Source: a virus
Taxonomy: Duplodnaviria > Heunggongvirae > Uroviricota > Caudoviricetes
Strand: one strand, 5' to 3'
Virus record (IMG/VR): IMGVR_UViG_2778261460_000002
Length of the DNA stretch: 38,593 nucleotides
Positions 1 to 37,859 of this stretch are shown here, one piece after another (position 1 is the first letter of the stretch; the number at the start of each line of letters is the position of its first letter). Under the pieces are notes generated by a model. It saw nothing but the letters and a program-made list of their open reading frames with translations, had not been told where the DNA came from and did no database searches. Both the position numbers and the translations under genes were made by a program.

Positions 1-1053
1 TTACGGGGTAATGCCAACCGCTGCCGCCACTTTGTCGCCACTTGGCAGCGTTGCCAGAGGATTGAAACGGAGCGCCGTTTCCAGATGATCCGGTGCCAGA
101 TGTGCGTAACGCATAGTCATTTTTATATCGTGGTGTCCGAGAATTTTTTGTAAGGCCAGAATGTTTCCACCCGACATCATGAAGTGCGCCGCAAACGTAT
201 GGCGCAGAACGTGTGTGAGTTGACCGCGAGGGAGCACGATAGACGTTTTTTCCATCACGGATAAAAATTGAAAATAGCAGTCTGTGAAGAAATTGAACCC
301 ATCAAGCGCCATGATCTCTTCGTAAAGCTCTTTACTGATAGGGATGCTTCTGTTTTTCTTCCCCTTCGTTCTGACAAAGGTAATTCGGTATTTGGTCACC
401 TGTGAGCGAGTAAGATTTACGGCTTCACGCCAGCGTGCGCCTGTGCTTAAGCATATCTTAACTACCAGTGCCAGAATTGGGTCCTGACGTTTGCAATCAG
501 CCAGCAATTCAACAATCTGCTCATGGGTAAGCCATGCCATCTCTTTTTCTGCGATGGTGAATTTTCGCATGTTCTCCAGTGGGTTCGGATACGACCATTC
601 GCCCAGACGGGATAGTTCGCTAAAAACACTACTTAGATAGCTTTGCTCCAGGTTAATGGTGACCGGGCTTGCTCCTTTCTTCCATTTCTCGCTGAAGTAG
701 ATCTCGCCTGTCAGGCGTTTATCTCGATAGTGGGCAAACATTTTAGAGGTGAGATCGGTTGCAAGAGGATTGCCCAGAGCGTCAACCATCAACAGCAATT
801 TGTCATAGACATGCTGCCCAGCTGTCAGAGATTTACCATGTAGTTTGAACCATAGTTCAACCACGTCTTTCAGTGTTCGACGATCCACTGATTCACCCAG
901 CCAGGGCTTTGCTTCGGTTTCTTCCATCGTGTGACGCTCAAAAGCCAGAGCTTCGCCTTTGGTGGCGAATTGTTTACGCACACGACGTCCACTACGTCCG
1001 GCGGGGTAACATTCGCAAAGCCATTTTCCTGTGGTGAGTTTTCGTACTGCCAT
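1..1053 (-). CDS. int: Phage integrase (tyrosine recombinase), P2/186 Int-like
   Basis: 350-aa ORF with tyrosine-recombinase C-terminal motifs (HVLRHTFA, MRYAHL); sits at the prophage end as in P2/186. Stop codon is at positions 3..1. Confidence 0.9.
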   Translation of the reverse strand: MAVRKLTTGKWLCECYPAGRSGRRVRKQFATKGEALAFERHTMEETEAKPWLGESVDRRTLKDVVELWFKLHGKSLTAGQHVYDKLLLMVDALGNPLATDLTSKMFAHYRDKRLTGEIYFSEKWKKGASPVTINLEQSYLSSVFSELSRLGEWSYPNPLENMRKFTIAEKEMAWLTHEQIVELLADCKRQDPILALVVKICLSTGARWREAVNLTRSQVTKYRITFVRTKGKKNRSIPISKELYEEIMALDGFNFFTDCYFQFLSVMEKTSIVLPRGQLTHVLRHTFAAHFMMSGGNILALQKILGHHDIKMTMRYAHLAPDHLETALRFNPLATLPSGDKVAAAVGITP

Positions 1054-1077
1054 AAAAAAGCCCTCATATCAGAGGGC
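1054..1077 (-). terminator. Rho-independent terminator on the minus strand (stem gccctc/gagggc followed by a U6 run) abutting the int start codon
   Basis: Plus strand reads aaaaaa-gccctc-atatca-gagggc at 1054-1077; on the minus strand this is a hairpin followed by six U residues, ending at the int ATG (1053). Confidence 0.55.
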
Positions 1078-1136
1078 TAAATTTAACTGTATATACAACC
1101 AGTAATCAATGTGTGATTACTATGAAACATACATTG

Positions 1137-2813
1137 CTAAGCAACATGCAGTTCATCGTTGGCGGAAGTTGCTGCTTTGCGCTCTTGCTCAATCGCCAGT
1201 GACTCTCTATATTCTTTCGCTTCCGCAAACATTGTCCATTGTGCGTTGATGTTCATATCTTCAATAACAGACTTAATTTCTTTAATATTTACGTTGAAAA
1301 ACTCTTTTCGTGAGTTAATTTTATTGACCTGTTTTTCGTTGAAGACTTTATGCAGATGATTTTCTAATGATGGTGCATCATCACTATAAATCATCGCATG
1401 AACATCGAACGAAAAAGGAACACTAGCATCACCGAGTTCACGAACACGATCAAGTGGTTCAAGGCGGCGTGTCATTCCAATTTTATATACATCTTCGCCA
1501 AATGAGCCAATATTACTAATTATATAAACGTGGCCTGATCTAGTTTGTTGAGCCATAGAAATAGCTCGTTGGTTTTTAGCTTCAGCTTCTTCATATTTTA
1601 ACTGTAGTTCAGCTATTTTTTGCTCTAAAGCTAAGCGTTGTTCTTCATTTGCAAGCATAAGCTCTTTTGTTGCTTTATTTATAGCTTGCTGAATAGCTTT
1701 CTCTTCTTTTTCAGCTTCTTTTATCGCTTTTTCATACTCCCTACGAGCTCTTTCCTCTTCACGAAGTTGTTCTTTAATCCTTCTTTGCTCTTCTTTTTCT
1801 TCGAGCATAATTTCATTAACTGCAACTCCCCATTTTAGCTCGTTGAGTCGAGCTTGAAGATAGATGTCACTTATTTTTGCGGACCTAAAGGCAGAACCAT
1901 TGTAATTTACAAGTTGAAACGCATCTTTTATCTCTTGGGAAAGTTTTCCAAAATTGTTGTGTTTGACTTTTGATAAAATACTGTCAACTCTTCCATTGAA
2001 GGCATCTAAAACAAAGTTGATAGCAGTATTACGCCTGTTTTGTTCAACATAATCACACGAAGCAGCTTTATTAGTTTTTATTAATGATTTTGTTAACTCC
2101 CTGGCTTTTTGTAATTCCTTACCTGCATCTGTAAACTCATAATTTTCTGCCAATTCATCGAGAACGCTACGGTTAGGGATGATCCATTCATCACCATAAC
2201 CTTCAATTTTATTTTTCATTGATTTGGCAACTGCTTCATATTTTTCTGCAAACTCTTTAGCTTCATATGCTGAACCAGCAATCTCTTTTGCTCTTTCTTC
2301 TGCATCGGAAATAATTTTCACTGCATTGTCATTAGCATTTGAGATCAGCTCATTTGCTTTACTATTGGCATTATCAAGACGTTCTTTAGCTTTCAGGCGT
2401 GCATCGCGAGCGTCTTTAGTAATTGCTATAGCTTCGCTATTAGCGTTGCTTATTTTTATCTGAGCTTGATAATTTGCTTCGTTTACTGTCTTAGCAGCCT
2501 TTATTTGGGCTTCTTCTATTTTTTGCCTGGCTATTGAGTCTGCATTTTTTATCTTATTCTCTGCTTCCATCACTGCGCTGTGCAATTCTACGTATTGCCA
2601 TAATGGCGCAGCTCGTCCTTCAAGCTCTGATAGATCTCGTACAGTCTGTGCTAATTCTTCTTGATTTTCTTTCAGTTGGTTGGAAAGGGCTATGTTGTTA
2701 GCTGTCAAGGTATTTATAGCCGCTTTATGTTTTTTGCTTTGCTTAAATAATATTACAGCTAGAATGGGGGCGAGAAATGCTAATAAGAATATAACGATGG
2801 AAAATGAATTCAT
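1137..2813 (-). CDS. Membrane-anchored coiled-coil protein with C-terminal T5orf172 (GIY-YIG-like) domain; DUF4041-type architecture; candidate anti-phage/moron gene
   Basis: 558-aa ORF. N-terminal hydrophobic helix (SIVIFLLAFLAPILAVILF), long E/K/A/Q-rich coiled-coil region, C-terminal segment GHVYIISNIGSFGEDVYKIGMTRRLEPLDRVRELG typical of T5orf172. AT-rich relative to the phage backbone. Start codon 20 nt downstream of the cI stop with a GGA Shine-Dalgarno, same strand as cI and int. Confidence 0.7.
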   Translation of the reverse strand: MNSFSIVIFLLAFLAPILAVILFKQSKKHKAAINTLTANNIALSNQLKENQEELAQTVRDLSELEGRAAPLWQYVELHSAVMEAENKIKNADSIARQKIEEAQIKAAKTVNEANYQAQIKISNANSEAIAITKDARDARLKAKERLDNANSKANELISNANDNAVKIISDAEERAKEIAGSAYEAKEFAEKYEAVAKSMKNKIEGYGDEWIIPNRSVLDELAENYEFTDAGKELQKARELTKSLIKTNKAASCDYVEQNRRNTAINFVLDAFNGRVDSILSKVKHNNFGKLSQEIKDAFQLVNYNGSAFRSAKISDIYLQARLNELKWGVAVNEIMLEEKEEQRRIKEQLREEERARREYEKAIKEAEKEEKAIQQAINKATKELMLANEEQRLALEQKIAELQLKYEEAEAKNQRAISMAQQTRSGHVYIISNIGSFGEDVYKIGMTRRLEPLDRVRELGDASVPFSFDVHAMIYSDDAPSLENHLHKVFNEKQVNKINSRKEFFNVNIKEIKSVIEDMNINAQWTMFAEAKEYRESLAIEQERKAATSANDELHVA

Positions 2814-2833: not shown

Positions 2834-3430
2834 TTAATTTGAAACTATTGTACTTCTTATACAAGCAACTACTTCAATATCAGAAAATGCACATTCAAAG
2901 CTATTCTCTGTACTTGTAATTTTAATCATACCTTTTGGAAGCTTTGTGATTTTTCGAATGGAATAGGTTCCGTCGATGTTGATTAACCAGTGCCCATCAA
3001 GTACTTCAGAAAATTTTTGATCACAAATGTATGTGACGAGCCCATCCTGAATAACAATTGGTGATGAAAGATTTGCAGGAAGAAATGATGAATCGAAGAC
3101 ATATGAACCATCTTCAATCATTTTGCCTGCGGTAAGGCGAAACTTGGCAAGCTCTTCTGTAGCTGCTGTCAGCGAGCTTTGCTTAAGGCCTTGCCCGGTG
3201 GTTAACCATTTCAGTGAGGTTCCTGTTTCAAGAGCACATTGGATTATCCAGTCTGCAGGAAACGTATCCCGCAAATACCTGTTCGCCAGAGTGCTTTTTG
3301 ATACTTCCAAGTGATCAGCTAAAGCCTGTCGTGTCGTAAAGCCATAAGCTTCGACTAATCGCTCAATCGCAGCCTTACCACCTTTATTGGGATTTATTTT
3401 GATCTCATTTGGGTACTTTGATGTTGACAT
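2834..3430 (-). CDS. cI: Immunity repressor, phage 186 CI-like
   Basis: 198-aa ORF divergent from the apl/cII lytic operon; N-terminal helix-turn-helix-like region, size and position match 186 CI. Confidence 0.7.
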   Translation of the reverse strand: MSTSKYPNEIKINPNKGGKAAIERLVEAYGFTTRQALADHLEVSKSTLANRYLRDTFPADWIIQCALETGTSLKWLTTGQGLKQSSLTAATEELAKFRLTAGKMIEDGSYVFDSSFLPANLSSPIVIQDGLVTYICDQKFSEVLDGHWLINIDGTYSIRKITKLPKGMIKITSTENSFECAFSDIEVVACIRSTIVSN

Positions 3431-3779: not shown

Positions 3780-4289
3780 ATGTTTGATTACCAAGTTTCC
3801 AAACATCCACATTTTGACGAAGCCTGTCGTGCATTCGCACTGCGCCACAACCTGGTGCAACTGGCAGAACGTGCAGGCATGAATGTACAGATTCTGCGGA
3901 ACAAGCTGAACCCAGCTCAACCTCATTTATTAACCGCACCAGAAATCTGGTTGCTTACCGATCTGACTGAAGATTCAACGCTGGTAGATGGCTTTCTGGC
4001 ACAGATTCACTGCCTGCCATGTGTACCGATTAATGAGGTGGCAAAAGAGAAACTGCCGCATTATGTCATGAGTGCAACCGCAGAGATCGGGCGTGTTGCT
4101 GCAGGTGCGGTATCCGGCGATGTAAAAACCAGTGCAGGTCGTCGTGATGCTATCAGCAGCATTAACTCTGTAACACGGCTGATGGCGCTGGCCGCTGTTT
4201 CATTGCAGGCCCGTTTACAGGCTAATCCTGCGATGGCGAGTGCAGTTGATACCGTTACTGGCCTCGGTGCTTCATTCGGTTTGCTGTGA
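3780..4289 (+). CDS. cII: CII-like lysogeny establishment activator (phage 186 type)
   Basis: 169-aa product from ATG 3780 ([10 protein letters not shown]...); position after apl and size match 186 CII. Confidence 0.6.
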
Positions 4290-8595: not shown

Positions 8596-8689
8596 TTACG
8601 CGGGTTAACAATTCGTGCTCTTAATAATACCAGGCATATCAGGCTGATGAACGTAAAAAAACGTTTTACATCAGTAAGATTATTATATA

Positions 8690-8705
8690 CTGTAAATATA
8701 AACAG
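8690..8705 (+). promoter_or_regulatory. LexA (SOS) box CTGTAAATATAAACAG
   Basis: Exact match to the CTGT-N8-ACAG LexA operator consensus, about 45 nt upstream of the tum-like start, inside an AT-rich promoter-like region. Confidence 0.7.
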
Positions 8706-8748
8706 TGTTTATGCATACAGTATTGTTTGTGGTGTCATAGGAGGAAAG

Positions 8749-8937
8749 ATGCAGGACTATTTTTTGGAGTCTTTGAAGCTCCAGCGCATTGATTTTTTTC
8801 TTAAGCTTGTAGCGGCTAGTGAGTGTAGTGATGAAGAGAAGGGGCTGGCTCTGCAGTGGGTTTCTGAATTGACTGATGAACTCATGGCAAAAATCAGAAG
8901 CCACGAATACAACCGCTCAATGGATGTCATCAGCTGA
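8749..8937 (+). CDS. Small SOS-regulated protein, candidate Tum-like antirepressor
   Basis: 62-aa product from ATG 8749 with AGGAGG RBS (8739-8744); directly downstream of the LexA box; position matches the 186 tum locus. Confidence 0.45.
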   Translation: MQDYFLESLKLQRIDFFLKLVAASECSDEEKGLALQWVSELTDELMAKIRSHEYNRSMDVIS

Positions 8938-8947
8938 GGTGACTTTT

Positions 8948-9181
8948 ATGCGCATTGAAATAATGATCGATAAAGAGCAGAAGATTAGCCAGTCTACCCT
9001 GGACGCTCTGGAGTCCGAGCTTTACCGCAACCTGCAACCCATCTATCCCAAGACAGCTATCCGCATCCGTAAAGGGTCGGCAAACGGCGTTGAGCTGAGT
9101 GGCTTAAAGCTTGATGAAGACAAAAAGCGGGTGATGGAAATTATGCAGCAGGTTTGGGAAGACGACAGATGGCTGCACTAA
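8948..9181 (+). CDS. DinI-family protein
   Basis: 77-aa product MRIEIMIDKEQK...IMQQVWEDDRWLH aligns by eye with E. coli DinI (MRIEVTIAK ... ILQETWE ... W); second gene in the LexA-boxed operon. Confidence 0.65.
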   Translation: MRIEIMIDKEQKISQSTLDALESELYRNLQPIYPKTAIRIRKGSANGVELSGLKLDEDKKRVMEIMQQVWEDDRWLH

Positions 9182-9563: not shown

Positions 9564-10175
9564 ATGGATTTAGTCTTTAAAATTCTGGCTTCGTTGGGTG
9601 GGGTGTCTTTTGTTGCATCTGGCATATTTGTTTGGATCGGGAAAGTTTATTTAGAAAGATATAAGTCGCGGCTAAACAAAGATATTGCTGAATTTCAATC
9701 ACAACTGAGTGCAACTAATGAAAGAATAAAGGCTAAGTTAGACAATTCTGTTTATGTAACGAAAGCGTATTTTGATAAGGAGTTATCAGCATATAGTCTC
9801 ATTTGGAATTCGATGTTTGAAACCAGAGAAAGCGTGCTTAAGCTGAGGCCTGCGCTGGATCATTTTGACCCCAACGAACCATTTGAAGAGAGAAAATTTA
9901 GAAGGTTGAAAGTTTTTTTCGATGCATTTAATACTTTTGTTACAAGTGTTGAGTCTAACAAACCGTTCATCTCACCAGAGGTTTATATAATCTTGGACCG
10001 TTTCCGGAAGGAATGCCTTTCAGAGTCAATATCGTTTCAGCATGGCGATCCAGAATTTGACTGGCAAAATTATTGGAAAGAGGCAGAGTTGAACCGTACA
10101 ACCATCACCAAGCTTTTTGATGAGACGTGTGATGCAATTCGAGACAGGATGCACACATTAACTGTGGTTACGTAG
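9564..10175 (+). CDS. Single-pass membrane protein of unknown function; accessory cargo in the old/tin-equivalent position
   Basis: 203-aa ORF with N-terminal hydrophobic helix (ILASLGGVSFVASGIFVWIG) and a soluble domain with no recognisable motifs; AT-rich; own promoter and terminator. Confidence 0.6.
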   Translation: MDLVFKILASLGGVSFVASGIFVWIGKVYLERYKSRLNKDIAEFQSQLSATNERIKAKLDNSVYVTKAYFDKELSAYSLIWNSMFETRESVLKLRPALDHFDPNEPFEERKFRRLKVFFDAFNTFVTSVESNKPFISPEVYIILDRFRKECLSESISFQHGDPEFDWQNYWKEAELNRTTITKLFDETCDAIRDRMHTLTVVT

Positions 10176-10464: not shown

Positions 10465-11163
10465 ATGGTTATGTTAGTGGATGACTGTCCACGATGTGGA
10501 TCACAAAAAATAGCGTTTGATGTTAATGGGCTGAATTGCACTAGGGTTTACAATGCATTGGGCGGGGGTAAAACATACGAGTACGAGGTCTATTGTGTTT
10601 GCCGAGAGTGTCATAAAACGACAATGTTTCTTTGCAGACCTTTAACGAAAAATAAAACTTTAGATGGCTATAATTGGAAAAGTGGAATATTCGGCTTAAA
10701 GGAAGTTGCAGAGGTTGTTAGGCCTATATCACCGGCAGACTTAGCAGTAGAGGAGCCACCAGAGTTCTTACCTGAGCATATCAATAGTGCATATGAGGAA
10801 GGGGCGAAATGTTTGGCTATAGGTTGTTATAATGCAGCAGCAACCATGTTTAGGCTTTGCCTTGATTATGCCACAAAAGGACTTCTTCCTGATGGGGAGC
10901 AAGGGCCTGCGCAAAAAATAAGGAGAAGCCTAGGGTTAAGAATGGAGTGGTTATTTGATAATCATCTACTGCCTGAAGCTTTAAGGGAACTAGCTGAATG
11001 CGTTAAAGATGACGGAAATGATGGAGCGCATGAAGGTATTTTGGATAAAGCTGCTGCTGAGGATCTTGAAGATTTTACCTATCTTTTTTTAGAACGGCTT
11101 TACACTGAACCTCAACGCCTTATCGAAGCCAAGACAAGGCGTGAACAAAGAAGAAACAAATAA
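10465..11163 (+). CDS. Zinc-ribbon protein with DUF4145/HEPN-like C-terminal domain; accessory cargo between cos and the portal gene
   Basis: 232-aa ORF; N-terminal CPRC-x35-CRECH Cys cluster; C-terminal helical region with GNDGAHEG resembling the RN..AHG motif of DUF4145 as recalled (arginine replaced). AT-rich, own promoter. Confidence 0.55.
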   Translation: MVMLVDDCPRCGSQKIAFDVNGLNCTRVYNALGGGKTYEYEVYCVCRECHKTTMFLCRPLTKNKTLDGYNWKSGIFGLKEVAEVVRPISPADLAVEEPPEFLPEHINSAYEEGAKCLAIGCYNAAATMFRLCLDYATKGLLPDGEQGPAQKIRRSLGLRMEWLFDNHLLPEALRELAECVKDDGNDGAHEGILDKAAAEDLEDFTYLFLERLYTEPQRLIEAKTRREQRRNK

Positions 11164-19944: not shown

Positions 19945-20796
19945 TTATTTCATTTCGTGTGGCATATTTATGGCTTTAATTTTTTCGTGGTAATGATTAA
20001 ACTCAATATGAGCATTGGTAAAATTAGATTCAAATGTATTCATTAAATTGGAATATAATGATTCATATGATAAGGATACTTTTTTTCCATTTTTTTCTGC
20101 AGTTGTGCTAATGTACCTATGTACTGCAGAAAAAAGAAAATGACCTCTAAGCCACTTTCTGTATTCTATCGATTTTGATTTGAAAGATGAATCGATGTTA
20201 TCTGGTTCCACACCTAATTTTTCAATGATGGTGTTTTTGTAACTCGTGATTTTTTGCTCGCAAATTTCATTTGATTTTCTAGATTTCATGAAACGATCTG
20301 CACTGTCACCAATAACTGAAATGCCTTTTCTATAAATATGATTGTATATATCAAGTTTTATTAGGGGTTCCATTTTGGTATAAAAGTCTTCTGTCCAAGA
20401 ATCGACGTTGACATCGTTCATTATCTTTTGAGGTAATTTTCCGAGAGTTTTTATTGCCTTATATATGCCTGTTTTGTCAATAAACGTGTTTTCGATGGAG
20501 TGCCCATAAGTTTTTACAATGCGACTATCAGCGTTTTCCTCATTTTCAAATGTAGTGAAGTCTGCATCACATGCAATTATAATTTGAAGATCTTCATCAG
20601 TAACTCTATCAATATATTTTTTTAATTCTTCACAGCCGCCAACATCTTTGATTTCAACCTTTAATGAACTAGCTTTATTAAAGATGATTTCCCAAAAGCA
20701 AATATCATCTGGGCCTTCAACATAAACCATGGCTTCAGCTTGGTAAAATAAATTCATTACATTTTCTGCTTCGGCAGAATAATGGAAATCATCCAT
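19945..20796 (-). CDS. DUF4435/Toprim-like nuclease, PARIS AriB-like (OLD-family Toprim fold)
   Basis: Open frame extends to 20880 (311 aa). The ATG at 20796 overlaps the upstream stop as ATGGATGA, so 283 aa is more likely. Toprim-like acidic motifs YVEGPDD and IIACDADF. Very AT-rich. Confidence 0.55.
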   Translation of the reverse strand: MDDFHYSAEAENVMNLFYQAEAMVYVEGPDDICFWEIIFNKASSLKVEIKDVGGCEELKKYIDRVTDEDLQIIIACDADFTTFENEENADSRIVKTYGHSIENTFIDKTGIYKAIKTLGKLPQKIMNDVNVDSWTEDFYTKMEPLIKLDIYNHIYRKGISVIGDSADRFMKSRKSNEICEQKITSYKNTIIEKLGVEPDNIDSSFKSKSIEYRKWLRGHFLFSAVHRYISTTAEKNGKKVSLSYESLYSNLMNTFESNFTNAHIEFNHYHEKIKAINMPHEMK

Positions 20797-22048
20797 GAAC
20801 CAATTTCTCCATATCAAAGATTGCATTTCGATATTTAGAAGCCACTTCTGGTGAATGCGTAGCGGCGATAATTTGCGCATTAGGATTAAGTTGTTTGATT
20901 GCAGGTATTATTTTTCGTTGCCATGCAATATGTAGCGATAATTCTGGTTCATCAGTAAGATAGATGAAAGGTTTGTTTTGCTGTAGCAAAGTTTCAATAA
21001 AAAGAATTAATAGCTGTTTTTCACCAGACGATAAATTACTATGGCTAATCGGCCCATGCTCGTTTTCTATTACTAGCTCACCGGAGATAAAATTAAATTT
21101 TTTATCGGTTATGAACTCATGTAATGTTTCTAAAAATAGATTTATAGGAAGAAATATGTTTTTTATTTTCTCCTCGGATTTTAAAGACATCTTTATAATT
21201 CTTTGCGTCTTTCGTAATGCCTCAAATGATCTGTAATCTACATTTAAAATATTTCTGTTATTTTTTTCTGCAAGTCGTAATTCTTCAAATGTTTTGGCAA
21301 TAGATTCAACGTGAAAGTTAATCTTCTTTCTGACATCACTATCAAAAGCTCCAAGCTGAGAATATGCAGCTATTAAATTTCTACGTTCTTTTTCTTTATC
21401 AAAAGAAAAGTTAAATGTGTCATCGATACCATCTTCTTTACTATAAAGAATAGAAGCAAGAACCTCTTTCTGTAATATTGCAGAAACATCACGAGCTCTT
21501 TGTGATAAATAAAGTTGATATTTTGTTAGGTTCTGCAATAATTGTTCTAATCGGTAATCAACAGGGTTGATTAATTTTGAGCCATATTTGTCTCTGATTT
21601 CAAAATCTTCACCGCTTCTAAGTCGGTAAACTGATAGAGAAGATAAAGCAACTAATTTATCTAACTCTAATTTAAGTTTTTCAACGTCTTCCTGATATTT
21701 TCTCCTCATATAAATAGGTAGTCTACGATCTTCAAAGGATCTGATAATATATTTCTTTCTAGAAATTGTATATTCAAACGTAGGCAAAGCTTTAGTTATG
21801 TCAAATTTACTCACAACTTTTATTGTTTTAGTTTTGCTTCCTTCTTTTATTTTTATTGTTACATTATCAAAACTATTCTCATTTAGTGATTCGAGTTCTA
21901 ATGCCAGAACTGAGTGAAGAATATTCATAAAGGTTGTTTTACCGGTCCCATTTCGACCAATAATAATATTTACATCTTCATTAAATGAACATGATGCATT
22001 TAGTCTTCCCCAAAAACCTTCAATCTTGACACTAGATAATCTAAACAT
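20789..22048 (-). CDS. ABC-type ATPase (AAA_15/AAA_21-like), PARIS AriA-like
   Basis: 419 aa; Walker A GRNGTGKTT, Walker B-like IYLTDEPE, H-loop AATHSPEV; translationally coupled to the downstream DUF4435 gene. Confidence 0.6.
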   Translation of the reverse strand: MFRLSSVKIEGFWGRLNASCSFNEDVNIIIGRNGTGKTTFMNILHSVLALELESLNENSFDNVTIKIKEGSKTKTIKVVSKFDITKALPTFEYTISRKKYIIRSFEDRRLPIYMRRKYQEDVEKLKLELDKLVALSSLSVYRLRSGEDFEIRDKYGSKLINPVDYRLEQLLQNLTKYQLYLSQRARDVSAILQKEVLASILYSKEDGIDDTFNFSFDKEKERRNLIAAYSQLGAFDSDVRKKINFHVESIAKTFEELRLAEKNNRNILNVDYRSFEALRKTQRIIKMSLKSEEKIKNIFLPINLFLETLHEFITDKKFNFISGELVIENEHGPISHSNLSSGEKQLLILFIETLLQQNKPFIYLTDEPELSLHIAWQRKIIPAIKQLNPNAQIIAATHSPEVASKYRNAIFDMEKLVHG

Positions 22049-25917: not shown

Positions 25918-26346
25918 ATGTACGTATGGAGCGCTAAATCAAATGGCTTTTTCCCCATATCGGAGAAAGAAAAATTTGAGGCATCAGGTCTGTGGCCTGA
26001 TGATGGTGTAATAGTCAGTGAGGAAGAACATAAAAAGTTATTTATGGATATTCCACCAGGAAAACAGATTGGAACACTGAATGGAAAACCAGCACTGATA
26101 GATATTCCTCAGCCGACCAAAAAGGAATTAATAGCTATTGCTGAAGTTAAAAAATCCCAATTACGGGAAAAAGCTGACAGTGAAATATCCTGGCGTCAGG
26201 ATGCTGTTGATGCTGATATCGCAACTGATGAAGAAACTTCAACTCTCACCGAATGGAAGAAATACCGTGTGCTGCTGATGCGTGTTGATACTTCAACAGC
26301 ACCCGATATTGAATGGCCTACGCCTCCGGCAGTTCAGGCCAGATGA
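25918..26346 (+). CDS. Tail fibre assembly protein (P2 gpG / Tfa-like), current-orientation copy
   Basis: 142 aa, C-terminal [13 protein letters not shown] shared with the inverted copy. Confidence 0.7.
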
Positions 26347-35526: not shown

Positions 35527-37212
35527 TTATCCTAATCCTGGCCATACCATGACGATGATTGTCCCTGCCAGCGTCAGCAGGACGTTGGCGATTGCGTAGG
35601 TGCCCGCATAGCCCAGCGCAGGGATGTTACTGCGAGCTGTATCACTGATGATCTCCATTGCCGGCGCGCAGGTGCGTGCGCCCATCATTGCGCCGAACAA
35701 CAGTGCGCGGTTCATTCGCAATACATAAGCACCGAACAAGAAACAGATAACCACGGGCACAAGACTGACAATTAATCCGGCAATCAACATCTGACCGCCA
35801 ATCGCGCCCAGGCCGTTATTAATACCGCTACCGGCGCTCAGACCAACGCCTGCCATAAACACCATCAAGCCGAACTCTTTCACCATGCTTAATGCACCTT
35901 GCGGAATGTAACCGAAGGTCGGGTGGTTAGCACGCATAAAGCCCAGCATAATTCCGGCGAATAACAACCCGGCAGCGTTCCCCATGCCGAAACTGAATGT
36001 GCTGAACTGGAAGGTGATCATCCCGATCATCAGCCCAATAACAAAGAAGGCGCAAAATGCCAGCAGGTCAGTGACCTGGCTGTGAATCGAGATAAAGCCG
36101 ATGCGATCGGCGATGGTTTTTACGCGACGGGCATCACCGCTGACTTGTAAAACGTCACCTTTGTTAAGCACGACGTTGTCATCTATCGGCATCTCAATCT
36201 GGCTACGAATGACGCGGTTAAGGAAGCAACCGTGATCGGTCAACTTCAGTTGTGCGAGACGTTTACCTACAGCGTTATGGTTTTTAACGACCACTTCTTC
36301 AGTGACGATACGCATGTCGAGAAGGTCACGATCGAAAACTTCTTTACCGTTACGGAAGCTGGGATCGAGTCGGGCATGGGCGTCGGGATAGCCTACCAAC
36401 GCTATTTCATCGCCCATTTGTAGCACGGCATCACCGTCTGGATTTGCAAGAATCCCGTTACGTCGAATACGTTCAATGTAGCAGCCGGTTTGTCGATAAA
36501 TACCCAGTTCACGCAGATTTTTGCCGTCGGTCCAGGCCACGAGCTCCGGGCCGACGCGATAGGCGCGGATCACCGGTAAATAAACCTTACGGTTGGCATC
36601 AGTGTCCAGGCCACGTTCGCGGGCGATTTGCTGGGCGCTGGTCTGTAAGTCCTGATGCTGCAATTTCGGCAAGTAACGCGCACCAACAATCAAACTCACC
36701 AGACCGATTAAATAGGTTAAGGCATACCCGAGGCTCAGATTATCCAGTGCCAGTGAGAGCTGCCTGCTTTCCATGCCGGAATGACGCAGTGTATCGCCAG
36801 CACCGACCAGAACCGGTGTCGACGTCATAGAGCCTGCTAACATACCGGCCGTCAGGCCAATATCCCAGCCAAACAGCTTACCTAACCCTAAGGCGATCAC
36901 CAGCGCACTGCCAACCATCACCAGTGCTAACATTAGGTAATTTTTCCCATCGCGAAAAAAAATGGAAAAAAAGTTCGGTCCGGCTTCGACCCCGACGCAG
37001 AAAATAAACAGCATAAAGCCAAGATTAAGCGCATCGGTGTTAATGCTGAAATGTTGTTGGCCTAATAACAGCGATACGACTAAAACGCCAATGGAATTAC
37101 CCAGTTGGATCGAACCAAGTCGTAACTTTCCGAGACATAGCCCAAGCGCGAGGACCACAAATAATAACAGAATGTAATTCCCATTTAACAATTCGGCGAC
37201 GTTTATATTCAC
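35527..37212 (-). CDS. ybjL: Putative transport protein YbjL (AAE-family transporter)
   Basis: 561-aa polytopic membrane protein with two membrane domains flanking a cytoplasmic region; matches E. coli YbjL as recalled. Confidence 0.85.
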
Positions 37213-37481
37213 GGAGGCTAACTTCTTGTTTACTAGTAAGCTGTTGAAAGAAATGGTAATTTACGATAATGTTTTTTACCAGAATTCAGGGCGCAGATTC
37301 ATTCAGCGCACCTAAACGATAGTAAAGTAACAATATATTTTACTAGTGTAATCACATTAGGTATCAACGGCTATATGAATTGCGTTGGCCTATATTAGCA
37401 TGGAATGCGAAGCGGCTTTATCTTACTGAACGCCACACTGGCGAAAAATGTGTTCGATAGACGCAGTGTCAGGAGGAACGA

Positions 37482-37859
37482 GTGAAACATAAACAACGTT
37501 GGGCGGGGGCAATCTGCTGTTTTGTCCTCTTCATTGTGGTGTGCCTTTTTCTGGCGACGCACATGAAAGGCGCTTTTCGGGCTGCCGGGCATCCTGAAAT
37601 CGGCTTGCTATTTTTCATTCTTCCTGGAGCAGTCGCCAGCTTCTTTTCACAGCGTAGAGAAGTCCTGAAACCTCTGTTTGGCGCAATGCTGGCGGCACCC
37701 TGTTCGATGCTCATTATGCGGCTGTTTTTTTCACCGACGCGCTCATTCTGGCAAGAGCTGGCATGGTTACTAAGCGCGGTGTTCTGGTGTGCGCTGGGGG
37801 CACTGTGTTTCTTATTTATCAGTAGTTTGTTTAAACCACAGCACAGAAAAAATCAGTAA
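37482..37859 (+). CDS. ybjM: Inner membrane protein YbjM
   Basis: 125-aa hydrophobic protein, conserved synteny ybjL-ybjM-grxA. Confidence 0.8.
   Translation: MKHKQRWAGAICCFVLFIVVCLFLATHMKGAFRAAGHPEIGLLFFILPGAVASFFSQRREVLKPLFGAMLAAPCSMLIMRLFFSPTRSFWQELAWLLSAVFWCALGALCFLFISSLFKPQHRKNQ

What the first reader, a model, noticed from the sequence alone, without database searches (positions are those of the whole stretch)
1054..1077. Terminator hairpin overlaps the integrase ribosome-binding region
The minus-strand hairpin and U6 run that should stop transcription from the upstream cargo gene ends exactly at the int ATG. The only purine-rich candidate Shine-Dalgarno for int (GAGGG) is the 3' arm of that hairpin. 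This would keep Int translation low unless the structure is melted or an alternative transcript is made, a possible control point for integration versus excision.
Basis: seen in the sequence. Interest (0 to 1): 0.35.

Follow-up and report, generated by a model that had tools for sequence, protein, structure and literature searches.

The report
Insulating hairpin inside SOS-controlled integrase promoter
The terminator-like hairpin that covers the integrase ribosome-binding site is real and conserved, but it belongs to an 85-base control module in front of the integrase gene that also holds a strong LexA (DNA-damage) operator and a promoter predicted to start transcription inside the hairpin, so integrase would be made only from that promoter and not from upstream transcription.

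Summary
On the minus strand, AGCCCTC (1078-1072), loop TGATAT and GAGGGCT (1065-1059) form a -13 kcal/mol hairpin. A T-run (1059-1054) follows and ends at the int ATG (1053). The GAGGG Shine-Dalgarno lies in the 3' arm.

The hairpin does not belong to the cargo gene. It is part of an ~85-bp module attached to int (1054-1134), found next to at least 29 different upstream contexts. The int 5' end matches 1120 of 5426 complete E. coli genomes.

The module reads, in order:
- a 186-CII-type dyad
- a -35-like TTGAyy
- the best LexA box in the whole window (1085-1104)
- an A/T-rich -10
- the hairpin
- the ATG

The same layout occurs from Escherichia to Pantoea (Int identity down to 51%), with eleven unrelated hairpin sequences. 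In most of them the Shine-Dalgarno sits in or overlaps the 3' arm. Only the E. coli/Klebsiella clade adds the T-run.

Best reading, with the start site inferred: RNA arriving from the cI-cargo operon is terminated and its ribosome site masked. The LexA-controlled promoter starts at the end of the 5' arm and gives an unstructured leader.

This is a new variant of known kinds, of moderate interest.

The parts
1..1053 (-). int, a P2/186-family tyrosine integrase of 350 aa. ATG at 1053..1051, stop at 3..1.
   Evidence: ORF list. Pfam Int_N 3e-32 and Phage_integrase 7e-22. 52-56% identical to the Int proteins of phages 186, RE2010 and ST437-OXA245phi4.1 and of Vibrio phage yong1.
1054..1059 (-). 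T6 (U6) run between the hairpin and the ATG. It is the terminator tail and also the U-rich spacer between the Shine-Dalgarno and the start codon.
   Evidence: Sequence. Kept, with small variants (T5, TTTATT, TTTTTA), in the clade with Int identity of 78% or more. Absent in more distant relatives.
1059..1065 (-). 3' arm GAGGGCT, holding the only Shine-Dalgarno candidate, GAGGG (1065..1061), 7 nt from the ATG.
   Evidence: The GAGG core (alignment columns 20-23) is invariant and the fifth G nearly so in the close clade. Variant L059 has GAGGA, paired with a compensating C-to-T change in the 5' arm.
1066..1071 (-). Hairpin loop TGATAT.
   Evidence: The loop varies among relatives (TGACAT, AGACAT, ACT, AAAA).
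1072..1078 (-). 5' arm AGCCCTC. It lies between the predicted -10 and the predicted transcription start (about 1074-1071).
   Evidence: Geometry. The start site is inferred, not mapped.
1080..1086 (-). A/T-rich -10-like element. TTAAAT (1086..1081) at 17 bp from the -35-like hexamer, or TAAATT (1085..1080) at 18 bp.
   Evidence: Sequence. The equivalent TTGACA-17-AAAAAT in the type B variant is flagged by the promoter scan (L090 3448-3476, 10 of 12). The window's own variant falls below that scan's threshold.
1085..1104 (-). Predicted LexA (SOS) box, TACTGGTTGTATATACAGTT, of the form CTG-N10-CAG.
   Evidence: Top-scoring 20-mer of all 38,574 in the window (24.3 bits; the training sites have median 19.5, range 12.9-26.1). 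cACTG and ACAGT are at least 60% and at least 90% conserved across 38 unique variants. Found at a fixed -47..-56 from the ATG in 14 enterobacterial genera and at -29..-37 in Vibrio and Photobacterium. About 700-fold enriched over the rest of the loci.
1104..1109 (-). -35-like hexamer TTGATT. Relatives have TTGACA or TTGACC.
1109..1134 (-). Dyad ATGTATG-N12-CACACAT. It resembles the phage 186 CII operator ATGTTTG-N13-CAAACAT and starts 2 nt after the cargo stop codon.
   Evidence: The 186 CII site is annotated in U32222. Most of the 29 loci with the module show two such dyads, one at the cII start (pE) and one in front of int.
1137..2813 (-). Upstream cargo gene, 558 aa: PD-Lambda-1 / SNIPE-type defence protein (DUF4041 plus T5orf172/MUG113).
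   Evidence: Pfam. PADLOC PD-Lambda-1, 5e-120. RefSeq names.
2834..3430 (-). cI repressor, 198 aa, 20 nt upstream of the cargo gene on the same strand. It marks the lysogenic operon that would read towards int.
   Evidence: Pfam Phage_CI_repr 8e-32 and Phage_CI_C 4e-27.
3780..3806 (.). Perfect CII-type dyad ATGTTTG-N13-CAAACAT at the cII start codon. This is the pE site of this prophage and the reference for the int-proximal dyad.
   Evidence: Same arrangement as in phage 186.

Best explanation
The hairpin is the insulating element of a self-contained int control module (window 1054-1134, minus strand).

Shown by sequence and comparison:
- The module reads: CII-type dyad, -35-like hexamer, LexA box, A/T-rich -10, G+C-rich 5' arm, loop, 3' arm holding the Shine-Dalgarno, (T-run), ATG.
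- This order and spacing are conserved across Enterobacterales, while the hairpin sequence itself is replaced many times.

Inferred mechanism:
1. In the lysogen, transcripts from pL run through cI and the defence cargo into the module. On these RNAs the full hairpin forms. In this clade the U-run then terminates most of them, and any read-through RNA has its Shine-Dalgarno locked in a -13 kcal/mol stem. Int is therefore not made from lysogenic or cargo transcription.
2. LexA bound at 1085-1104, between the -35 and the -10, keeps the int promoter shut.
3. DNA damage cleaves LexA. The same signal fires the tum-type antirepressor promoter at 8688-8722. The int promoter then starts at about 1074-1071, at the 3' end of the 5' arm. 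Its roughly 20-nt leader cannot form the hairpin, is not terminated, and has a free GAGGG and a U-rich spacer, so Int is translated when excision is needed.
4. During infection the upstream dyad may let CII switch on the same promoter for integration, as lambda pI does. This last step is the weakest.
For: Hairpin and Shine-Dalgarno masking.

The module travels with int, not with the cargo:
- 1120 of 5426 complete E. coli genomes match. In 33 of the 34 partial-match rows sampled evenly down the ranking, homology starts at window 1112-1136 and stops at the cargo end; 6 further rows match the whole query.
- 102 loci hold the module, with 29 distinct upstream contexts.

LexA box:
- It is the best hit in the window (24.3).
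- It sits at a fixed position in 29 loci from 16 genera, with Int identity from 100% down to 51% in the enterobacterial genera and 49% in Vibrio.
- There are 25 hits of 17 bits or more in 2,880 positions upstream of int, against 7 in about 596,000 positions elsewhere.
- The second- and third-best hits in the window lie upstream of a DinI-like (Tum-type) ORF, so this prophage already uses LexA.

Promoter:
- TTGACA-17-AAAAAT is flagged in the type B variant, its -10 overlapping the first bases of the 5' arm.
- TTGAC is kept in the large majority of the 38 variants.

Geometry: in 10 of 11 independent hairpin types the 5' arm ends 11-14 nt after the LexA box (up to 15 in phage ESSI2_ev040). That is where a start site 7 +/- 1 nt after the -10 would fall.

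Leader folding: RNA starting at 1074 or 1072 folds at only -4.3 or -3.7 kcal/mol (z about 0). RNA that includes the 5' arm folds at -12.9.

Need for insulation: relatives without a U-run on the leader hairpin often carry a separate terminator just upstream of the dyad (Rahnella rivi, Winslowiella, Erwinia, Pantoea, and weakly Brenneria). The E. coli clade has none other than the hairpin.

Contrast: in phage 186, RE2010 and Klebsiella phages ST15 and ST437, cI and int overlap or abut with no module. 186 int is read from pL and pE.

CII dyad:
- Same half-sites as the annotated 186 site.
- Most of the 29 loci show two dyads.
- Photobacterium L122 carries the same variant half-sites, TTGTTTC-N12-TAAACAT, at both places.
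Against: - No transcript end, LexA binding or termination was measured. Everything about the start site is geometry.
- The window's own promoter is a weak consensus match (TTGATT and TTAAAT/TAAATT, 8 of 12) and was not flagged by the scan. The predicted start bases are pyrimidines.
- The LexA matrix was built from about 28 E. coli sites that I recalled from memory.
- The window's dyad has 12 of 14 half-site matches and a 12-bp rather than 13-bp spacer. From memory of Shearwin and Egan (2000), a 1-bp spacing change weakens 186 CII binding.
- The dyad lies about 12 bp further upstream of the start than I estimate for pE.
- If CII used a pE-like geometry, the start would lie about 31 nt before the ATG and the RNA would contain the whole hairpin.
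- The tool's terminator scan did not list the type B hairpin in L090, although my own scan did.
- The Pantoea L161 hairpin is weak (-3.9 kcal/mol, not significant), and the Winslowiella L106 and Erwinia L125 hairpins are only marginally significant (-6.8 and -6.1 kcal/mol, p about 0.04-0.05).
Confidence: 0.5

Rival explanations
1. The int promoter is real, but it starts upstream of the 5' arm, at or before 1078. Every int mRNA then carries the hairpin, which acts as a constitutive attenuator and translational throttle on int's own transcript and keeps Int low at all times.
For: The start site is unmapped. The A/T-rich core of the LexA box offers alternative -10 hexamers (TATATA at 1095..1090). 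A pE-like CII geometry would put the start about 31 nt before the ATG. Tight limits on integrase level are common, by general knowledge.
Against: A promoter whose RNA meets a terminator 25 nt downstream would be largely futile. TTGAC is kept in the large majority of variants, and in all variants an A/T-rich hexamer follows the LexA box 16-18 bp after the -35-like element. The 5' arm ends at a near-constant 11-14 nt after the LexA box in unrelated hairpins. That constancy is expected if the start must fall there and is unexplained otherwise.
Confidence: 0.25
2. The hairpin is an ordinary intrinsic terminator of the cI-cargo operon that happens to abut int. Int is made only from the fraction of upstream transcripts that read through, at low efficiency because the Shine-Dalgarno is paired. 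There is no dedicated int promoter.
For: It is the only terminator-like site after the cargo gene. In phages 186 and P2, int is expressed from the lysogenic operon.
Against: The hairpin is kept with int and not with the cargo. It persists without a U-run in relatives. A top-scoring, position-fixed LexA box, a -35 and a -10 sit directly in front of it across 16 genera.
Confidence: 0.12
3. The G+C-rich 5' arm is a promoter discriminator (growth-rate or ppGpp control). Alternatively, the stretch 1052-1120 encodes a small RNA that ends at the terminator. In either case the pairing with the Shine-Dalgarno is incidental.
For: The 5' arm lies between the -10 and the predicted start. Rfam gives a sub-threshold RyhB-like match (30 bits against a gathering score of 55, E = 0.001).
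Against: Compensatory changes keep the pairing (C-G to U-A in L059; A-U, U-G and C-G at the closing pair). The hairpin has been replaced wholesale while the pairing is kept. All Rfam matches are below threshold and rest on the terminator shape. The first hairpin of the putative small RNA (1101-1121) is not conserved in other variants.
Confidence: 0.04

Closest known systems
Lysogenic operons of phages 186 and P2 (pL/pE-cI-int; Pc-C-int)
   Same: Same phage family (Peduoviridae), same gene order (cII, apl, cI ... int) and the same CII operator at the cII start. In 186 and P2, int is expressed with the repressor gene.
   Different: In 186, cI and int overlap by one base and there is a single CII-activated promoter. 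Here a defence gene and an 85-bp module with its own operator, promoter elements and hairpin separate cI from int.
Phage lambda int control: CII-activated pI, and sib/tI retroregulation
   Same: The logic is the same. Whether Int is made depends on which promoter the RNA came from, because only one class of transcript can form a given RNA structure. An establishment activator (CII) may drive a dedicated int promoter. This comparison rests on textbook knowledge, not on a test made here.
   Different: In lambda the discriminating structure is at the 3' end (an RNase III site formed only on anti-terminated pL read-through RNA). Here it would be at the 5' end (a terminator and ribosome-site mask formed only on RNA that starts upstream). 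There is no sequence relationship. Lambda int is not LexA-controlled.
LexA-repressed integrase promoters: integron intI, and a Gram-positive phage integrase from the gut metagenome
   Same: A LexA box overlaps the promoter of a tyrosine recombinase gene, which couples recombination to the SOS response (PMC3108266, listed; PMC3998124).
   Different: Different elements and recombinase families. No such control of P2/186-like phage integrases was found in the paper library. Those systems have no reported hairpin embedded at the start site.
The 186 SOS operon (p95-tum), LexA-controlled antirepressor
   Same: This prophage has tandem LexA boxes at 8688-8722 upstream of a DinI-like (Tum-type) ORF, as 186 does.
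   Different: That operator controls induction of the switch, not int. The int-proximal box is an additional, higher-scoring LexA site.
Intrinsic (Rho-independent) terminators and hairpins that sequester the Shine-Dalgarno
   Same: G+C-rich 7-bp stem, 6-nt loop, U6 tail, and the Shine-Dalgarno base-paired in the 3' arm.
   Different: One hairpin does both jobs, and it sits between the -10 and the start of the next gene's promoter. The downstream promoter would therefore escape it.

Membership tests
Intrinsic (Rho-independent) terminator | G+C-rich stem of about 5-14 bp with a loop of 3-8 nt | tested here: met
   7 pairs, 5 of them G-C, loop of 6 nt, -12.9 to -13.3 kcal/mol.
Intrinsic (Rho-independent) terminator | U-rich tract immediately 3' of the stem | tested here: met
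   T6 at 1059..1054. Kept in the clade with Int identity of 78% or more. Absent in Kluyvera, Serratia, Yersinia, Rahnella, Brenneria and phage ESSI2_ev040.
Intrinsic (Rho-independent) terminator | Lies downstream of a co-directional gene, with no other terminator in between | tested here: met
   The cargo stop codon is at 1139..1137. No other terminator-like site lies in the 400 nt upstream.
Intrinsic (Rho-independent) terminator | Transcripts actually end in the U-tract | not testable with these tools
   Needs 3' end mapping or in vitro transcription.
Translational repression by Shine-Dalgarno sequestration | The Shine-Dalgarno is base-paired in a stable local structure | tested here: met
   GAGGG lies fully inside the 3' arm in the MFE and centroid structures. 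In 8 of 11 independent hairpin types from relatives the matched Shine-Dalgarno motif is entirely or almost entirely paired in the 3' arm; in Rahnella and Pantoea it is only partly paired, and in Serratia the matched motif falls in the loop.
Translational repression by Shine-Dalgarno sequestration | The pairing is kept in evolution through compensatory change | tested here: met
   95.7% of cells are paired, 2 of 7 pairs have changes on both sides, and the covariation score is reached by 1 of 500 shuffles. Distant relatives have wholly different arms. The close-clade sample is phylogenetically related, so the shuffle count is not a probability.
LexA (SOS) operator, gammaproteobacterial type | CTG-N10-CAG palindrome with an A/T-rich core, scoring within the range of known sites | tested here: met
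   TACTGGTTGTATATACAGTT scores 24.3, the best of 38,574 positions. The training sites score 12.9-26.1. The matrix was built from sites recalled from memory.
LexA (SOS) operator, gammaproteobacterial type | Overlaps the core promoter elements of the regulated gene | tested here: inconclusive
   It lies between the predicted -35 and -10, but the promoter itself is only predicted.
LexA (SOS) operator, gammaproteobacterial type | Conserved in front of orthologous genes in other species | tested here: met
   29 of 82 loci examined (the 80 genome loci, this window and phage ESSI2_ev040), from 16 genera, carry a box at a fixed offset. There are 25 hits in the slot against 7 in about 596 kb elsewhere.
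LexA (SOS) operator, gammaproteobacterial type | LexA binds, and the gene is induced by DNA damage | not testable with these tools
   Needs EMSA or ChIP, and expression data.
Phage 186 CII operator (as at pE) | Inverted 7-bp half-sites ATGTTTG / CAAACAT | tested here: inconclusive
   The window has ATGTATG / CACACAT, 12 of 14 matches. Relatives reach 13-14 of 14, and ESSI2_ev040 is perfect.
Phage 186 CII operator (as at pE) | Half-sites 20 bp apart centre to centre (13-bp spacer) | tested here: not met
   The window's spacer is 12 bp (19 bp centre to centre). Relatives have both 12 and 13. I therefore do not file the window's dyad as a proven CII site.
Phage 186 CII operator (as at pE) | Half-sites straddle the -35 region of the activated promoter | tested here: not met
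   With TTGAyy as the -35, the dyad lies wholly upstream, with its right half-site abutting the -35. The pE geometry was estimated from the 186 sequence and from memory.
Any described RNA family (Rfam 15) | A match at or above the family's gathering score | tested here: not met
   The best match is RyhB at 30 bits against 55. All matches are below threshold.

The most novel reading that the evidence does not exclude
In a large group of P2/186-like prophages, carried by about a fifth of complete E. coli genomes and extending to Vibrio, the integrase gene is a direct member of the host SOS regulon. It has a two-input promoter, repressed by LexA and possibly activated by phage CII. Its transcription start lies inside a hairpin that terminates and translationally silences every transcript arriving from upstream. 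This would be a 5'-end counterpart of lambda's sib logic. It would also explain how defence cargo can be expressed constitutively between cI and int without producing integrase.
Probability: 0.4. Interest if true: 0.6.

Novelty: new variant of a known kind. Interest (0 to 1): 0.5.

Why it matters
If the model holds, it matters in four ways.
- It shows how temperate phages of this family uncoupled int from the repressor operon. That opened a slot for anti-phage defence genes next to cI while keeping integrase silent in the lysogen.
- It ties prophage excision directly to DNA damage through LexA as well as through the Tum antirepressor.
- It gives a compact, portable part: a terminator hidden inside a promoter, so that only locally started RNA is translated.
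- It adds a very common prophage gene to the predicted E. coli SOS regulon.

Everything is directly testable with a few reporter fusions and 5'-end mapping in available strains, for example BL21(DE3), which carries the type B variant.

Tried and rejected
- Rfam search of 900-1300: only sub-threshold matches driven by the terminator shape.
- Apl/Cox binding at the dyad: the annotated Apl sites of 186 are TTGGCAA/TTGCCA-type repeats, unlike ATGTWTG. Rejected.
- CI binding: the 186 FR site is TTCAC-N5-GTGAA, unlike either dyad. Rejected.
- My first pattern search for the dyad with a 14-bp spacer found nothing because the spacer is 12 bp. This was corrected.
- The perfect inverted repeat AGTAATCA-cacat-TGATTACT (1121..1101), which RNAfold draws as a second hairpin, is specific to the window's variant and is not kept in other variants. 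I do not treat it as part of the conserved element.
- The hairpin as a terminator for the plus strand: the plus-strand tail is AAATTT, not a T-run, and no plus-strand gene converges there.
- Papers on P2 int regulation (Yu et al. 1994, PMC236345) and the P2 review (PMC4836473) could not be read. Statements about them are from memory or from citing papers.
- Four literature searches for LexA control of P2/186-like int found nothing specific.
- No protein structure or large homology search was needed.
Full report
**1. The observation**

The window starts at the stop codon of a minus-strand integrase gene (1..1053, 350 aa). Pfam matches are Int_N and Phage_integrase.

Read on the minus strand, the sequence before the ATG is TTTAGCCCTCTGATATGAGGGCTTTTTTATG.
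- 5' arm AGCCCTC: 1078..1072
- loop TGATAT: 1071..1066
- 3' arm GAGGGCT: 1065..1059
- T-run: 1059..1054
- ATG: 1053..1051

GAGGG (1065..1061) is 7 nt from the ATG and lies wholly in the 3' arm. RNAfold returns this hairpin as the MFE and centroid structure in every context tried. The 45-nt RNA folds at -12.9 kcal/mol. The 34-nt segment folds at -13.3, with 0 of 500 shuffles as stable. It heads the list of terminator-like sites in the first 4.5 kb.

**2. Surroundings**

Upstream on the same strand lie two genes.
- A 558-aa defence gene at 2813..1137. Pfam gives DUF4041 plus T5orf172/MUG113. PADLOC gives PD-Lambda-1 at 5e-120. RefSeq calls relatives 'SNIPE associated'.
- The 186-type CI repressor at 3430..2834, 20 nt further up.

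On the other strand are an Apl-sized ORF and a 186-type CII (Phage_CP76, 3e-42), whose start codon lies in a perfect ATGTTTG-N13-CAAACAT dyad at 3780-3806. That dyad is the annotated CII operator of pE in phage 186.

The window is therefore a 186-like prophage. Host ybjL/ybjM-like genes lie at its right end.

In phage 186 itself, cI and int overlap by one base. There int is read from pL and pE, and pE is described as the only CII-activated promoter. Salmonella phage RE2010 and Klebsiella phages ST15-OXA48phi14.1 and ST437-OXA245phi4.1 also have cI abutting int. P2 likewise expresses C and int as one operon.

**3. The hairpin belongs to int, not to the cargo**

A 501-bp query spanning the cargo end and the int start matches 1120 of 5426 complete E. 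coli genomes. Only 165 of them match through the cargo. In 33 of the 34 partial-match rows sampled evenly down the ranking, the match begins at window 1112-1136 (at or just inside the upstream edge of the module, whose far end adjoins the cargo stop codon) and runs into int; 6 further rows match the whole query.

Examples are BL21(DE3), with CI, a 63-aa ORF and then int, and strain 98207, with a long CI, a 329-aa ORF and then int. Klebsiella phage 4LV2017 is another.

Among IMG/VR and species-representative loci I found 102 copies of the module, behind 29 different upstream contexts. The stretch between integrase and primase is a known minor defence hotspot of P2-like phages (PMC13586616). That paper does not mention LexA or terminators.

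**4. What else is in the 85 bp**

Aligning the variants showed a fixed series of elements.

(a) A dyad ATGTWTN-N12/13-NAWACAT. In the window it is ATGTATG-N12-CACACAT at 1134..1109, starting 2 nt after the cargo stop codon.

(b) TTGAC(A/C). In the window it is TTGATT at 1109..1104.

(c) ACTG-N10-CAGT, which has the form of a LexA box.
- I built a position weight matrix from about 28 E. coli SOS boxes that I recalled from memory.
- It places 1085-1104 first among all 38,574 positions of the window (24.3 bits; the training sites have a median of 19.5).
- Second and third come the tandem sites at 8688-8707 and 8703-8722.
- Those lie just upstream of a DinI-like (Tum-type) ORF behind the replication gene A, as at p95 in phage 186.

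(d) An A/T-rich hexamer 16-18 bp after the -35. It is TTAAAT or TAAATT in the window and AAAAAT in type B.
- In type B the tool's own promoter scan flags TTGACA-17-AAAAAT (10 of 12). Its -10 overlaps the first bases of the 5' arm.
- The window's variant is weaker (8 of 12) and was not flagged.

(e) The hairpin, and (f) the ATG.

**5. Breadth**

I scanned one genome per species with an Int alignment. LexA boxes scoring at least 14 bits lie at -47..-56 from the int ATG in these genera: Escherichia, Silvania, Raoultella, Klebsiella, Citrobacter, Kluyvera, Dryocola, Serratia, Yersinia, Rahnella, Winslowiella, Brenneria, Erwinia and Pantoea. Int identity there falls to 51%.

In Vibrio and Photobacterium the box lies at -29..-37. 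There it overlaps a good -10 (for example TTGCTC-17-TATACT) and there is no leader hairpin.

Hits of 17 bits or more number 25 in the 2,880 positions of that slot, against 7 in about 596,000 other positions of the same loci.

Loci without the box mostly have cI running straight into int.

**6. The hairpin across relatives**

Within the close clade there are two main alleles: AGCCCTC/GAGGGCT and ATGCTCTC/GAGGGCAT. There is also AGTCCTC/GAGGACT, which is a C-G to U-A double change, plus variants at the closing pair (A-U, U-G, C-G).
- 95.7% of cells are paired, against 38.6-70.3% when the 3' partners are slid.
- 2 of 7 pairs show changes on both sides.

Further out, the arms are entirely different but a hairpin is still there, and the Shine-Dalgarno motif lies in or overlaps its 3' arm in all but Serratia.

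| Relative | Arms | Energy (kcal/mol) |
|---|---|---|
| Kluyvera | AAACTCTCCTA / TAGGAGAGTTT | -14.2 |
| Serratia | GTAGCCC / GGGCTAC | -13.0 |
| Yersinia | ACCCCCTT / AAGGGGGT | -12.9 |
| Rahnella | CACATTCTC / GAGAATGTG | -14.0 |
| Brenneria | TACAGCCCC / GGGGGCTGTA | -19.0 |
| ESSI2_ev040 | ATACCCCT / AGGGGTAT | -11.7 |

Most of these have z below -4. Two are only marginally significant (Winslowiella and Erwinia), and one is weak and not significant (Pantoea).

None of these distant hairpins is followed by a U-run. The U-run is confined to the clade with Int identity of 78% or more.

In that clade the upstream gene stops 70-91 nt before the ATG (about 188 nt in the BL21-type variant), and no other terminator is present. 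By contrast, Rahnella rivi, Winslowiella, Erwinia and Pantoea have a canonical terminator, and Brenneria a weak one, just upstream of the dyad.

So the widely kept feature is a hairpin at the ribosome-binding site. Termination is provided either by a separate upstream terminator or, in the window's clade, by giving the same hairpin a U-tail.

**7. Geometry and mechanism (inferred)**

The -35 abuts the LexA box and the -10 follows it. A start 7 +/- 1 nt after the -10 therefore falls 11-13 nt after the box. In 10 of 11 independent hairpin types the 5' arm ends 11-14 nt after the box (up to 15 in ESSI2_ev040). In the window the predicted start is about 1074-1071, at the 3' end of the 5' arm (1078..1072).

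RNA beginning at 1074 or 1072 folds at only -4.3 or -3.7 kcal/mol (z about 0). RNA that includes the arm folds at -12.9.

The reading that fits all of this has two parts.
- Transcripts arriving from cI and the cargo form the hairpin, are terminated, and if they read through have a masked Shine-Dalgarno.
- Transcripts from the LexA-controlled int promoter begin inside the hairpin, escape both effects, and carry a free GAGGG with a U-rich spacer.

None of it has been measured.

**8. The dyad**

Its half-sites match the 186 CII operator. Most of the 29 loci with the module have two such dyads, one at the cII start and one in front of int. Photobacterium L122 carries the same variant form, TTGTTTC-N12-TAAACAT, at both places. 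Apl and CI sites look different. A CII-activated int promoter would parallel lambda pI.

Three points count against it.
- The window's copy has 12 of 14 matches and a 12-bp spacer.
- It sits about 12 bp further upstream than I estimate for pE.
- As I recall, 186 CII is sensitive to 1-bp spacing changes.

I treat this step as a plausible but weaker inference.

**9. Comparison with what is known**

Each ingredient has a precedent.
- Intrinsic terminators and hairpins that mask the Shine-Dalgarno are well known.
- LexA-repressed integrase promoters are described for integrons (PMC3108266) and for one Gram-positive phage integrase (PMC3998124).
- Lambda int is controlled by CII at pI and, through sib, according to which promoter the RNA came from (textbook knowledge).

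I found no description of a LexA box or of this module at the int gene of P2/186-like phages. The library lacks most subscription papers, and the 1994 P2 int paper could not be read.

Rfam has no matching family.

I class this as a new variant of known kinds.

**10. Verdict**

- Observation: confirmed.

The best explanation carries about 0.5 confidence overall. My estimates for its separate steps are:
- a conserved hairpin that masks the Shine-Dalgarno on read-through RNA: about 0.8
- a functional LexA operator: about 0.8
- a start site inside the hairpin: about 0.55
- CII activation: about 0.35

Interest is 0.5.

Noticed in passing
window 1085-1104 (minus strand 1104..1085): The strongest LexA-box match in the whole window sits 32-51 nt upstream of the int ATG. 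It recurs at the same offset in 14 enterobacterial genera and nearer the ATG in Vibrio and Photobacterium. It became the core of the explanation.
   Followed up: yes
window 8688-8707 and 8703-8722: Two overlapping LexA-box matches (22.8 and 15.6 bits) lie behind a TTTACA -35-like hexamer. They are downstream of replication gene A and upstream of a DinI-like (Tum-type) ORF at 8876-9181. This is probably the p95/tum SOS operon of this prophage.
   Followed up: partly
window 1137-2813 (-): The cargo between cI and int is a PD-Lambda-1 / SNIPE-type defence gene (N-terminal hydrophobic segment, DUF4041, T5orf172/MUG113). In other genomes the same slot holds at least 28 other inserts of 62-670 codons.
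   Followed up: partly
window 19945-22048 (-): Overlapping genes for an AAA_21/AAA_15 ATPase (419 aa) and a DUF4435 protein (311 aa) lie on the minus strand inside the late region. This domain pair is that of PARIS-type defence systems, which I identify from memory and did not test.
   Followed up: no
window 10465-11163 (+) and 9564-10175 (+): A DUF4145 protein and an ORF with no family match lie between the tum region and the portal gene, in the known GpA-GpQ hotspot of P2-like phages. They are probably further cargo.
   Followed up: no
window 1101-1121 (minus strand): A perfect 8-bp inverted repeat, AGTAATCA-cacat-TGATTACT, overlaps the right half of the dyad, the -35 and the start of the LexA box. 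It is present only in the variant linked to the SNIPE-type cargo and is not conserved elsewhere. Its meaning is unknown.
   Followed up: partly
window 3780-3806: A perfect 186-type CII operator (ATGTTTG-N13-CAAACAT) whose left half is the cII start codon, exactly as in phage 186.
   Followed up: yes
window 35527-37859: Host-like genes lie at the right end: a ybjL-type Asp-Al_Ex/TrkA_C permease and ybjM. The prophage therefore ends near 35.2-35.5 kb, and the window overshoots attR. Relatives sit next to rcdA and ybjJ.
   Followed up: no
window 26075-26094: A weaker LexA-like match (14.5 bits, CACTGAATGGAAAACCAGCA) lies in the tail-fibre region. It is probably chance.
   Followed up: no
L090 3474-3500 (type B hairpin): The tool's terminator scan did not list the type B hairpin ATGCTCTCT-ACT-GGAGGGCAT followed by T6, although it meets the stated criteria by my own scan. 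The reason may be its two G-U pairs or the way the tool picks stems.
   Followed up: no
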